Shown here: positions 32,601-35,600 of the stretch, in pieces
Position numbering within the stretch: position 1 is the first letter of the stretch
Layout of the letters: each line of letters starts with the position of its first letter
DNA from: Escherichia coli
Lineage (GTDB): Bacteria > Pseudomonadota > Gammaproteobacteria > Enterobacterales > Enterobacteriaceae
DNA: 64,000 nt
Strand: one strand, 5' to 3'
Assembly: GCF_045037415.1 (NCBI RefSeq)
Contig: NZ_CP173438.1
Program-made: the position numbers

Positions 32601-35600
32601 GGTGGGCTACGCGCTGGCGGTAACGCATCCTCAGGCAGGGAATCTGGGCGGCGGTGGTTTTATGCTGATCCGCTCGAAAAATGGCAATACCACGGCTATC
32701 GATTTCCGCGAAATGGCACCCGCCAAAGCGACCCGCGATATGTTCCTCGATGATCAGGGCAACACGGACAGCAAAAAATCACTCACTTCGCATCTGGCTT
32801 CCGGCACACCCGGTACGGTAGCGGGTTTCTCGTTGGCGCTGGATAAATACGGCACCATGCCGTTGAATAAAGTGGTGCAACCGGCGTTTAAACTGGCACG
32901 CGATGGTTTTATCGTTAACGACGCGCTGGCTGACGATCTCAAAACCTACGGCAGTGAAGTGCTGCCGAACCACGAAAACAGCAAAGCTATCTTCTGGAAA
33001 GAGGGCGAACCGCTGAAAAAGGGCGACAAGCTGGTGCAGGCGAACCTGGCAAAGAGCCTGGAGATGATTGCCGAAAACGGCCCGGATGAATTCTACAAAG
33101 GCACGATAGCGGAACAGATTGCCCAGGAGATGCAGAAAAACGGTGGCTTGATCAGCAAAGAAGATTTAGCGGCATATAAAGCGGTCGAACGCACACCGAT
33201 AAGCGGCGATTATCGCGGGTATCAGGTTTACTCCATGCCACCGCCATCTTCCGGCGGTATTCATATCGTACAAATCCTCAATATTCTGGAAAACTTCGAT
33301 ATGCAGAAGTACGGCTTTGGCAGCGCCGACGCGATGCAAATCATGGCAGAAGCTGAGAAATACGCCTACGCCGACCGCTCGGAATATCTTGGCGACCCGG
33401 ATTTTGTCAAAGTACCGTGGCAGGCGCTGACCAATAAAGCCTATGCCAAATCTATTGCCGATCAAATCGATATCAATAAAGCGAAGCCATCCAGCGAAAT
33501 TCGTCCTGGCAAGCTTGCGCCTTATGAGAGTAATCAAACTACCCATTACTCAGTAGTGGATAAAGACGGTAACGCCGTGGCGGTGACCTATACACTGAAC
33601 ACCACCTTCGGTACGGGCATTGTCGCGGGCGAGAGCGGTATTTTGCTCAATAACCAGATGGATGATTTCTCCGCCAAACCAAGCGTACCGAACGTTTACG
33701 GGCTGGTGGGCGGCGATGCCAACGCCGTCGGGCCGAATAAACGCCCGCTGTCGTCGATGTCACCAACCATTGTGGTCAAGGATGGTAAAACCTGGCTGGT
33801 CACCGGAAGCCCAGGCGGTAGCCGGATTATCACCACTGTGCTGCAAATGGTGGTGAATAGCATCGATTATGGAATGAACGTCGCCGAAGCGACCAATGCG
33901 CCGCGTTTCCACCATCAGTGGTTGCCGGACGAGCTGCGTGTCGAAAAAGGGTTTAGCCCGGATACGATCAAGCTGCTGGAAGCAAAAGGTCAGAAAGTGG
34001 CGCTGAAAGAGGCGATGGGCAGTACACAAAGCATTATGGTTGGGCCGGACGGTGAGCTGTACGGTGCATCCGACCCGCGCTCGGTGGATGATTTAACGGC
34101 GGGGTATTAATATCTTAAGCCCTCTCCCGGTAGGTGAGGGCTTAAATGACAAACGTAGATTGCAAATTCTCTATTTCACACGCGCCATATAATACGCATC
34201 GACATATTCACCGTTTCGTAATGCGTACTTCTTGCCAGTCCCTTCAATCTCAAAGCCAAATTTTTTATAGACCTTAATTGCTGGCGCGTTATCGACGAAC
34301 ACCGTTAGCTCGATACGATCTACCCGCAACCAGTTGTCGCACATTTCAATCATCTCTCGCATCAGGGCGCTGGCGACGCCGCGGTTCTTCCAACGGGAGT
34401 CGACACAGATACCAAAATCGGCAACATGACTGCGGCGTGGGCGTTGTTGCACGTCAATGGTGAGATGGCCTACGACGATTCCATCAATACAGGCGACTAA
34501 CTGCTTGATGCCAGGGCGAGCGGTGAGTCGTTCCAGCCACATTTGTTCTGAAGGATGAGGCACCTGTAGCGTGTTGTAATACACCTCCGGCTGGGCGTGA
34601 ATCTGCCTGATGGCCTCGTAATCGCGTGTTTCTGCGTGGCGTATTACTATCTCACTCATTCCTTTGTCCTCTTTGGGGTAAATGTCCCTTTCAACATCAT
34701 TGACTTTCAAATGCGAGTCAAATGCATTTTTTTGCAAAAAGTGTTGGACAAGTGCGAATGAGAATGATTATTATTGTCTCGCGATCAGGAAGACCCTCGC
34801 GGAGAACCTGAAAGCACGACATTGCTCACATTGCTTCCAGTATTACTTAGCCAGCCGGGTGCTGGCTTTTTTTTTGATCTTTCGTTCTCAATTTATCCTC
34901 GGGAAGTGCTTGTGTTCGTTATGCGCACTCCAGTAGGAACCACGTCCGCTTTGCGCTAAGGTGTAAATAACCACCTTAAAAAGGACGAAATCATGGTCAT
35001 TAACTGCGCCTTTATTGGCTTCGGCAAAAGCACCACCCGTTACCATCTGCCGTATGTACTTAACCGCAAGGATAGCTGGCATGTCGCGCATATTTTTCGC
35101 CGCCATGCGAAGCCGGAAGAACAGGCCCCCATTTATTCCCATATCCATTTCACCAGCGATCTCGACGAAGTGCTAAACGATCCCGATGTTAAGCTGGTTG
35201 TCGTCTGCACCCACGCGGACAGCCACTTCGAGTACGCGAAGCGCGCGCTGGAAGCCGGGAAAAATGTGCTGGTCGAAAAACCGTTCACTCCGACAATTGC
35301 GCAGGCGAAAGAGCTGTTTGCACTGGCGAAAAGCAAAGGGCTGATCGTTACGCCGTATCAGAATCGTCGCTTTGATTCCTGCTTCCTGACAGCGAAAAAA
35401 GCGATTGAAAGCGGCAAGCTGGGAGAGATTGTCGAAGTGGAAAGCCATTTTGACTATTACCGCCCGGTGGCAGAAACCAAACCGGGGCTGCCGCAGGATG
35501 GCGCGTTCTATGGCCTTGGTGTGCATACGATGGACCAGATTATTTCTCTGTTCGGTCGCCCGGATCACGTCGCTTATGACATCCGCAGCCTGCGTAATAA

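What the first reader, a model, noticed from the sequence alone, without database searches (positions are those of the whole stretch)
34111..34170. ggt directly abuts yhhY: K-12 yhhZ-yrhA-IS1-yrhB segment is absent
Only about 60 bp, with a terminator-like hairpin (aagccctc...gagggctt), separates the ggt stop from the yhhY stop. As I recall, K-12 carries several kb here including yhhZ, pseudogene fragments and an IS1 copy. This strain therefore shows the empty-site configuration, which helps define a variable hotspot next to ggt.
Basis: partly seen in the sequence, partly recalled or inferred. Interest (0 to 1): 0.3.

Follow-up and report, generated by a model that had tools for sequence, protein, structure and literature searches.

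The report
Ancestral empty ggt–yhhY junction
In this strain the genes ggt and yhhY sit tail to tail, 60 bp apart, around one conserved hairpin; this is the original arrangement, whereas K-12 and about three quarters of E. coli carry a later AT-rich toxin/immunity insert there, so the finding is correct but ordinary.

Summary
The ggt stop codon ends at 34110 and the yhhY stop codon starts at 34171 on the minus strand. The 60 bp between them contain one strong hairpin (34115-34145, about -19 to -20 kcal/mol).

K-12 MG1655 has 3,454 bp at this position: yhhZ, yrhA split by IS1E, yrhD and yrhB. None of these genes occurs anywhere in the window.

Among 5,426 complete E. coli genomes:
- 985 (18%) have an empty junction, and 853 of those have this window's version. 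They include B2 strain SK1144 and an O25b:H4-ST131 strain.
- About 4,035 (74%) carry a yrhB-containing insert, and about 3,770-3,830 of them also have yhhZ-yrhA.
- 343 (the O157:H7 group) carry a different cargo, a DUF4225 protein.
- Several decayed or IS1-deleted forms also exist.

The empty state is ancestral. E. albertii, two further divergent Escherichia genomes (E1V33, E69) and about 35 other Enterobacteriaceae loci have yhhY and ggt 35-131 bp apart. Three of the Escherichia outgroups have almost the same 60 bp as the window.

The K-12 insert has 30-35% GC. It encodes an Hcp-HNH toxin (YhhZ) and an Imm35 immunity protein (YrhB). It starts directly after the ggt hairpin and has no integrase or flanking repeats. 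Alleles appear to be exchanged by homologous recombination in the flanking genes.

Verdict: a real feature, correctly interpreted, and routine pangenome variation. Interest is low.

The parts
32377..34110 (+). ggt (gamma-glutamyltransferase), 577 aa, stop codon TAA at 34108-34110
   Evidence: The ORF is. The identical gene is annotated in SK1144. Nucleotide identity to the K-12 ggt region is 94.8%.
34111..34170 (.). 60-bp intergenic junction between the convergent stop codons: the unoccupied, ancestral allele of the ggt-yhhY variable site
   Evidence: Sequence. No blastn match in the K-12 insert. Nearly identical to the 60-62 bp spacers of Escherichia sp. E1V33, E. albertii and E. coli E69. 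The 74-nt junction is present in 853 of 5,426 genomes.
34115..34145 (.). G+C-rich hairpin (10-bp outer stem TTAAGCCCTC/GAGGGCTTAA plus 2 inner pairs); the likely shared transcription stop for ggt and yhhY
   Evidence: Folds. Unique in the window. A comparable hairpin (-19 to -29 kcal/mol) sits in the ggt-yhhY (in K-12, ggt-yrhB) spacer of all 12 loci folded. 3 of 13 pairs show compensatory changes among 7 Escherichia spacers. Not called by the T-run terminator scan.
34141..34142 (.). Position equivalent to the left (ggt-side) boundary of every cargo seen at this site; cargo begins directly after the 3' arm ...GAGGGC
   Evidence: K-12, 401656, O157:H7 86-24 and VE-V11-M all share GGTTAGCGGCCCTCTTCGTGGGAAGAGGGC after the ggt stop, with one loop base differing in 401656, and diverge immediately after it. 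The empty allele of APEC E956 has the same hairpin followed by the window-type right half TTAAATGACAAAC....
34171..34659 (-). yhhY (GNAT N-acetyltransferase), 162 aa, stop codon TAG at 34171-34173
   Evidence: ORF. Annotated in SK1144. Pfam Acetyltransf_1, E = 4.9e-18.

Best explanation
The 60 bp at 34111-34170 are the original, never-expanded junction between two convergent core genes, ggt and yhhY. One G+C-rich hairpin between the stop codons most likely stops transcription coming from both sides.

In the E. coli population, an AT-rich cassette was later placed directly after this hairpin. It encodes an orphan type VI secretion toxin (YhhZ, an Hcp domain fused to an HNH-like nuclease) with neighbouring immunity-type genes (YrhA, YrhB = Imm35). 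This filled allele is now the majority form, and K-12 has it with an extra IS1.

The window's lineage is B2, with a junction identical to SK1144 and to an O25b:H4-ST131 strain. It carries the ancestral allele instead. Filled and empty alleles are swapped between strains by homologous recombination in the flanking genes, not by a site-specific mobile element.

Shown: the anatomy, the K-12 difference, the population census, the outgroup state, and the content of the cassette. Inferred: terminator function, recombination as the transfer mechanism, and toxin/immunity activity of the cassette.
For: 1. Anatomy and the K-12 contrast.

2. Ancestral state. yhhY and ggt are convergent and 35-131 bp apart in E. 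albertii, E. whittamii, Escherichia sp. E1V33, E. coli E69 and about 35 loci from Citrobacter, Enterobacter, Klebsiella, Pluralibacter, Lelliottia, Yokenella and others. The spacers of E1V33, E69 and E. albertii match the window's almost base for base.

3. Census in 5,426 genomes: 985 empty, 853 of them window-type and 74 with the K-12-type hairpin. 4,035 contain yrhB. 3,766-3,829 contain yhhZ-yrhA. 343 carry the DUF4225 cargo.

4. The cassette looks foreign and is of toxin/immunity type. GC is 30-35% against 50-57% in the flanks. YhhZ matches T6SS_HCP, with a weak HNH match; YrhB matches Imm35. The literature calls YhhZ an 'evolved Hcp' and a His-Me finger nuclease of T6SS effector type (PMC2907695, PMC5714182).

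5. Recombination. B2 strains that carry the cassette (401656, ATCC 11775) match the window's flanks closely: 0-7 differences per 100 bp across ggt, and 0-2 beyond the first 200 bp of the yhhY side. The first roughly 200 bp of the yhhY 3' end stand out, with 10-11 differences.

6. Hairpin conservation.

7. No cassette gene or IS1 occurs anywhere in the window.
Against: - The hairpin lacks a following T run and is not called by the terminator scan. No transcript-end data were available.
- The direction of the allele exchange within phylogroup B2 is unresolved. The 3' 200 bp of yhhY is mosaic in all strains compared, so B2 may have gained the cassette, or the window's lineage may have regained an empty allele.
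- The right-hand boundary of the K-12 insert cannot be mapped. A possible remnant (TTGAATGACA versus TTAAATGACA) scores no better than 7-15% of shuffles.
Confidence: 0.88

Rival explanations
1. The lineage once carried the cassette and regained an empty allele by homologous recombination with an empty-site donor. The junction is ancestral in sequence but secondarily acquired in this lineage.
For: Phylogroup B2 holds both states on near-identical flanks, and a patch of differences is confined to the yhhY 3' end. This shows that allele replacement by recombination happens at this site.
Against: Nothing in the window points to an imported tract. The direction cannot be read from the mosaic yhhY 3' end. 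The most economical reading is retention, because the spacer matches the Escherichia outgroups.
Confidence: 0.2
2. The 60-bp junction is the product of a deletion that removed a K-12-like insert in this lineage.
For: Deletions do occur at this site: IS1-mediated deletions in 730V1 and H9Ecoli, and a yrhB-only remnant in VE-V11-M.
Against: Those deletion products leave IS1, yrhB, or truncated ggt and yhhY, and all keep the K-12-type hairpin. The window's spacer, including the 29 nt to the right of the hairpin, is absent from filled alleles and matches E. albertii and the other divergent Escherichia genomes. A deletion cannot recreate that sequence.
Confidence: 0.03
3. The junction is an assembly artefact, or a collapse of a repeat.
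For: None.
Against: The same 74-nt junction is found in 853 independently assembled complete genomes, 714 of them at 99% identity or more. It is single-copy in each genome (median 1 place).
Confidence: 0.01

Closest known systems
Ancestral ggt-yhhY synteny of Escherichia and other Enterobacteriaceae (for example E. albertii NBRC 107761, Escherichia sp. E1V33)
   Same: The same convergent gene pair, the same spacer length (60-62 bp), and a nearly identical spacer sequence and hairpin.
   Different: A few substitutions. In E. albertii the centre of the hairpin reads as the reverse complement of the window's, which looks like a small inversion between the arms.
K-12 MG1655 yhhZ-yrhA::IS1E-yrhD-yrhB segment (b3442-b3446), an orphan Hcp-HNH ('evolved Hcp' / Hcp-ET-type) toxin-immunity cassette
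   Same: It occupies the same chromosomal position between yhhY and ggt. Its ggt-side hairpin (GCCCTCTTCGTGGGAAGAGGGC) is an allelic variant of the window's hairpin.
   Different: It consists of 3,454 bp of 30-35% GC DNA that is entirely absent from the window. The spacer sequence is different on both sides.
Chromosomal insertion/deletion 'hotspots' of the E. coli pangenome: variable cargo between conserved core genes, spread by homologous recombination of the flanks (general knowledge of E. coli comparative genomics)
   Same: There are several unrelated cargos and decay states at one core-gene junction, elevated polymorphism in the flanking yhhY, and no dedicated integration machinery.
   Different: This is a small site (0-3.5 kb in the genomes sampled), not a tRNA-linked or integrase-linked island. 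I found no paper in the searchable library that describes this particular junction.

Membership tests
Unoccupied (ancestral) allele of a variable chromosomal site | The flanking core genes are contiguous, with only a short spacer. | tested here: met
   60 bp lie between the ggt and yhhY stop codons.
Unoccupied (ancestral) allele of a variable chromosomal site | Other strains of the species carry extra DNA at the same position. | tested here: met
   K-12 has 3,454 bp. About 4,035 genomes have a yrhB-containing insert and 343 have the DUF4225 cargo.
Unoccupied (ancestral) allele of a variable chromosomal site | Outgroup species share the contiguous arrangement and the spacer sequence. | tested here: met
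   E. albertii, E1V33, E69, E. whittamii and about 35 other Enterobacteriaceae loci.
Rho-independent (intrinsic) terminator, bidirectional | A G+C-rich stem-loop directly after the stop codon or codons. | tested here: met
   -19 to -20 kcal/mol, z about -3. A comparable hairpin is present in all 12 taxa folded.
Rho-independent (intrinsic) terminator, bidirectional | A run of U after the stem on the transcribed strand, with an A run before it for the opposite direction. | tested here: not met
   The scan finds no terminator. The tails are UUAAAU on the + strand and UUAAGAUAUU on the - strand. The K-12 allele does have UAUUUUGU after its hairpin.
Rho-independent (intrinsic) terminator, bidirectional | Transcripts end at the hairpin. 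| not testable with these tools
   This needs Term-seq or 3' RACE.
Attachment site of an integrative element (att site) | The insert is flanked by direct repeats of the empty-site sequence and carries an integrase or recombinase. | tested here: not met
   The K-12 insert has no integrase; its only transposase genes belong to the secondary IS1E inside yrhA. The ends share no repeat, and the spacer differs on both sides.
REP/BIME-type dispersed palindromic repeat | Many copies per genome. | tested here: not met
   One copy in the window. The junction query finds a median of one place per genome.
Hcp-fused toxin / immunity cassette (yhhZ-yrhA-yrhB) | An Hcp-domain toxin gene and an Imm-family gene are present. 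| tested here: not met
   Present in K-12 (T6SS_HCP, a weak HNH match, Imm35). The window has no hit to any of these proteins (all E > 0.1) or to the insert DNA.

The most novel reading that the evidence does not exclude
The conserved ggt hairpin may act as a fixed landing boundary where successive AT-rich interbacterial-conflict cargos are captured and exchanged: the Hcp-HNH toxin with Imm35, and separately the DUF4225 protein of the O157:H7 group. On this reading, the empty allele that dominates B2/ST131-type strains would be a selected state, for example because an orphan toxin/immunity set gives no benefit to these strains. It would leave them without YrhA/YrhB-type immunity against YhhZ-armed competitors.
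Probability: 0.12. Interest if true: 0.35.

Novelty: already known. Interest (0 to 1): 0.15.

Why it matters
The practical value is small.

- It shows that K-12 is the derived state at this locus. K-12-centred annotation should not treat yhhZ-yrhB as core genes.
- The junction gives a simple marker that separates about 18% of E. coli (largely B2, including ST131-type strains) from the rest.
- It documents a compact example of a toxin/immunity cassette at every stage of decay.
- If YhhZ is an active T6SS-delivered nuclease in some strains, empty-site strains lack the linked immunity genes. That prediction is testable.

Tried and rejected
- Canonical terminator scan of 33800-34500: nothing was called. 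The hairpin is kept as a probable but non-canonical terminator.
- Search for remnants of the ancestral spacer at the yhhY end of the K-12, O157 and VE-V11-M inserts. The best case is TTGAATGACA versus TTAAATGACA in K-12, which 7-15% of shuffles equal. It is not used as evidence.
- Attempt to read the direction of allele exchange within B2 from the yhhY 3' end. All strains are mosaic there, so the result is inconclusive.
- REP-like repeat idea: rejected, because the sequence is single-copy.
- Site-specific mobile element idea: rejected, because there is no integrase and there are no flanking repeats.
- Literature searches for yhhZ, Hcp-ET, and yrhA/yrhB/yhhY/ggt. They return papers on YhhZ as an evolved Hcp / HNH effector but no description of this junction as a variable site.
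- The second 'ggt' match seen in many genomes is a 293-bp ggt 3' pseudogene fragment inside an IS-rich island near cobU. It is unrelated to this junction.

Full report
**Observation.** ggt runs on the + strand and ends with TAA at 34108-34110. yhhY runs on the - strand, 34171-34659, with its stop codon TAG at 34171-34173 (identical genes are annotated in strain SK1144). The gap is 34111-34170, exactly 60 bp. It contains the hairpin TTAAGCCCTC-TCCCGGTAGGT-GAGGGCTTAA at 34115-34145, which folds at -19 to -20 kcal/mol (z about -3; 2 of 200 shuffles fold as well). Its core motif is unique in the 64-kb window, against 0.04 expected by chance. A consensus terminator scan does not call it, because no T run follows the stem.

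**K-12 comparison.** In MG1655 (NC_000913.3) the yhhY stop is at 3581626 and the ggt stop at 3585081. The 3,454 bp between them hold yhhZ, yrhA in two fragments split by IS1E (insA6/insB6), yrhD and yrhB. blastn homology between the window and K-12 ends at 34110 and resumes at 34168. The insert DNA and its proteins, including IS1, have no significant match anywhere in the window.

**What the K-12 insert is.**
- Outside IS1 its GC content is 30-35%, against 50-57% in the flanks.
- YhhZ matches the T6SS Hcp family (E = 1.6e-11) and has a weak HNH match. YrhB matches Immunity protein 35 (E = 4e-23). YrhA and YrhD match nothing in Pfam.
- Published work calls YhhZ an 'evolved Hcp' with a degenerate HNH domain (PMC2907695) and places it in an HNH group of T6SS effector proteins (PMC5714182).
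- The segment missing from this window is therefore an orphan Hcp-toxin/immunity cassette.

**Survey of 5,426 complete E. coli genomes.**

| State at the ggt-yhhY site | Genomes |
|---|---|
| Empty junction (140-bp query, at least 80% covered) | 985 |
| — window-type 74-nt junction (714 at 99% identity or more) | 853 |
| — empty with the K-12-type hairpin followed by the window-type right half (APEC E956 type) | 74 |
| yrhB segment present | 4,035 |
| yhhZ-yrhA segment present | 3,766-3,829 |
| Unrelated 1,855-bp cargo encoding a DUF4225 protein (O157:H7 / O55:H7 group) | 343 |

- The window-type junction is found in B2 strain SK1144 and in an O25b:H4-ST131 strain. The phylogroup of SK1144 comes from PMC12366417.
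- About 60 genomes fall outside these classes.
- Individual states seen:
  - intact yhhZ-yrhA-yrhD-yrhB without IS1 (strain 401656);
  - yhhZ with an internal stop (ATCC 11775);
  - yhhY-IS1-yrhB-ggt (730V1);
  - yrhB only (VE-V11-M);
  - an IS1 deletion that truncates both ggt and yhhY (H9Ecoli).

**Ancestral state.** A scan of one genome per species with YhhY returned 45 loci.
- In every locus that holds both genes, ggt lies convergent to yhhY, except that Franconibacter pulveris (L034) has about 2.9 kb between them. In the 19 spacers extracted, the distance is 35-131 bp.
- The only locus with the cassette is a contaminant contig identical to K-12.
- The spacers of Escherichia sp. E1V33 (60 bp), E. 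coli E69 (60 bp) and E. albertii (62 bp) are almost identical to the window's.
- The empty junction is therefore the ancestral arrangement, and the K-12 insert is derived within E. coli. A deletion of the insert cannot explain the window, because filled alleles do not contain the window-type spacer.

**Boundaries and mechanism.**
- All filled alleles examined (K-12, 401656, O157:H7, VE-V11-M) share the 30 nt GGTTAGCGGCCCTCTTCGTGGGAAGAGGGC after the ggt stop, with one loop base differing in 401656. They diverge directly after it.
- The E956-type empty allele has this same hairpin followed by the ancestral right half. Cargo therefore begins at the position equivalent to window 34141/34142.
- There are no flanking direct repeats and no integrase. 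A possible remnant at the yhhY end of the K-12 insert is not significant.
- B2 strains with the cassette match the window's flanks closely: 0-7 differences per 100 bp across ggt, and 0-2 beyond the first 200 bp of the yhhY side. The first roughly 200 bp of the yhhY 3' end carry 10-11 differences. This is the signature of allele replacement by homologous recombination with a crossover inside yhhY.
- Which B2 haplotype is the recombinant cannot be decided, because that part of yhhY is mosaic in all strains.

**The hairpin.** The ggt-yhhY spacer (in K-12, the ggt-yrhB spacer) of every locus folded contains a strong G+C-rich hairpin of -19 to -29 kcal/mol (7 Escherichia plus Pluralibacter, Enterobacter and Yokenella). 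Among 7 Escherichia spacers, 3 of 13 predicted pairs show compensatory changes. I infer that it is a shared stop signal for the two convergent genes. The K-12 allele has a proper U tract (UAUUUUGU) and the window allele does not, so this step remains an inference.

**Verdict.** The observation and the interpretation both hold. The added points are:
- the empty state is ancestral and is shared by 18% of complete E. coli genomes;
- the missing DNA is a decaying Hcp-toxin/immunity cassette;
- exchange between alleles appears to occur by homologous recombination.

This is ordinary accessory-genome variation. The kind of feature is already known, and interest is low.

Noticed in passing
window 34810-34874 (+): The small RNA RyhB (Rfam RF00057, 83 bits) lies between yhhY and yhhX, as in K-12. 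It is the only Rfam match in the window.
   Followed up: yes
window 19891-20830 (ORFs 20039-20305 and 20312-20839, +): A 940-bp segment between livJ and panZ replaces 182 bp of K-12. It encodes a TacA-like antitoxin (PF08681, E = 3e-26) followed by a GNAT acetyltransferase. This looks like a TacAT/AtaT-type toxin-antitoxin pair.
   Followed up: partly
window 39947-43430 (ORFs 40084-42183 and 42090-43385, +): A 3.5-kb insert between gntU and yhgN is absent from K-12. It encodes a RecQ-family helicase overlapping a DprA-like (DNA_processg_A / SLOG) protein. The same pair is annotated in strain 401656 and, with the helicase as a pseudogene, in O157:H7 86-24.
   Followed up: partly
window 55312-58125: A 2.8-kb segment between glgP and glpD replaces 265 bp of K-12, which include yzgL. 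It holds a 505-aa PBP_like_2 protein and two ORFs (255 and 201 aa) with no Pfam match.
   Followed up: partly
window about 62149-62162: K-12 positions 3556250-3559482 have no counterpart in the window. They cover the start of rtcA, all of rtcB and most of rtcR. The RNA repair operon therefore appears deleted or truncated in this strain.
   Followed up: no
window 36850-36878: The yhhW-gntR spacer is 29 bp here, against 160 bp in K-12.
   Followed up: no
L007 7748-8040 (NZ_CP048330.1, 1820321-1820613); also plasmid NZ_AP022088.1, 4189-4365: Many genomes hold a second, 293-bp pseudogene fragment of the ggt 3' end. It sits inside an IS-rich island near cobU, next to phosphotriesterase-related and DMT transporter genes. 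One plasmid carries a 178-bp ggt 3' fragment (H40).
   Followed up: partly
L055 2600-3088 (APEC E956 yhhY), compared with window 34171-34659: yhhY is unusually polymorphic. The E956 allele differs from the window by 86 of 489 nt (about 18%), while the adjacent yhhX region is nearly identical to the window's. In other genera YhhY also splits into groups of about 85% and about 66% identity to the window protein.
   Followed up: partly
L011 6454-6521 (E. albertii): The centre of the E. albertii hairpin (CTCGCCTACCGGGAG) reads as the reverse complement of the window's (CTCCCGGTAGGTGAG). This looks like a small inversion between the hairpin arms.
   Followed up: no
L013 (CABHOW010000200.1, labelled a 'Flavihumibacter' MAG): This 4-kb contig encodes YhhZ, YrhA and YrhD 100% identical to K-12, next to yhhY and yhhX. 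It is evidently E. coli K-12 contamination in a public metagenome-assembled genome.
   Followed up: no
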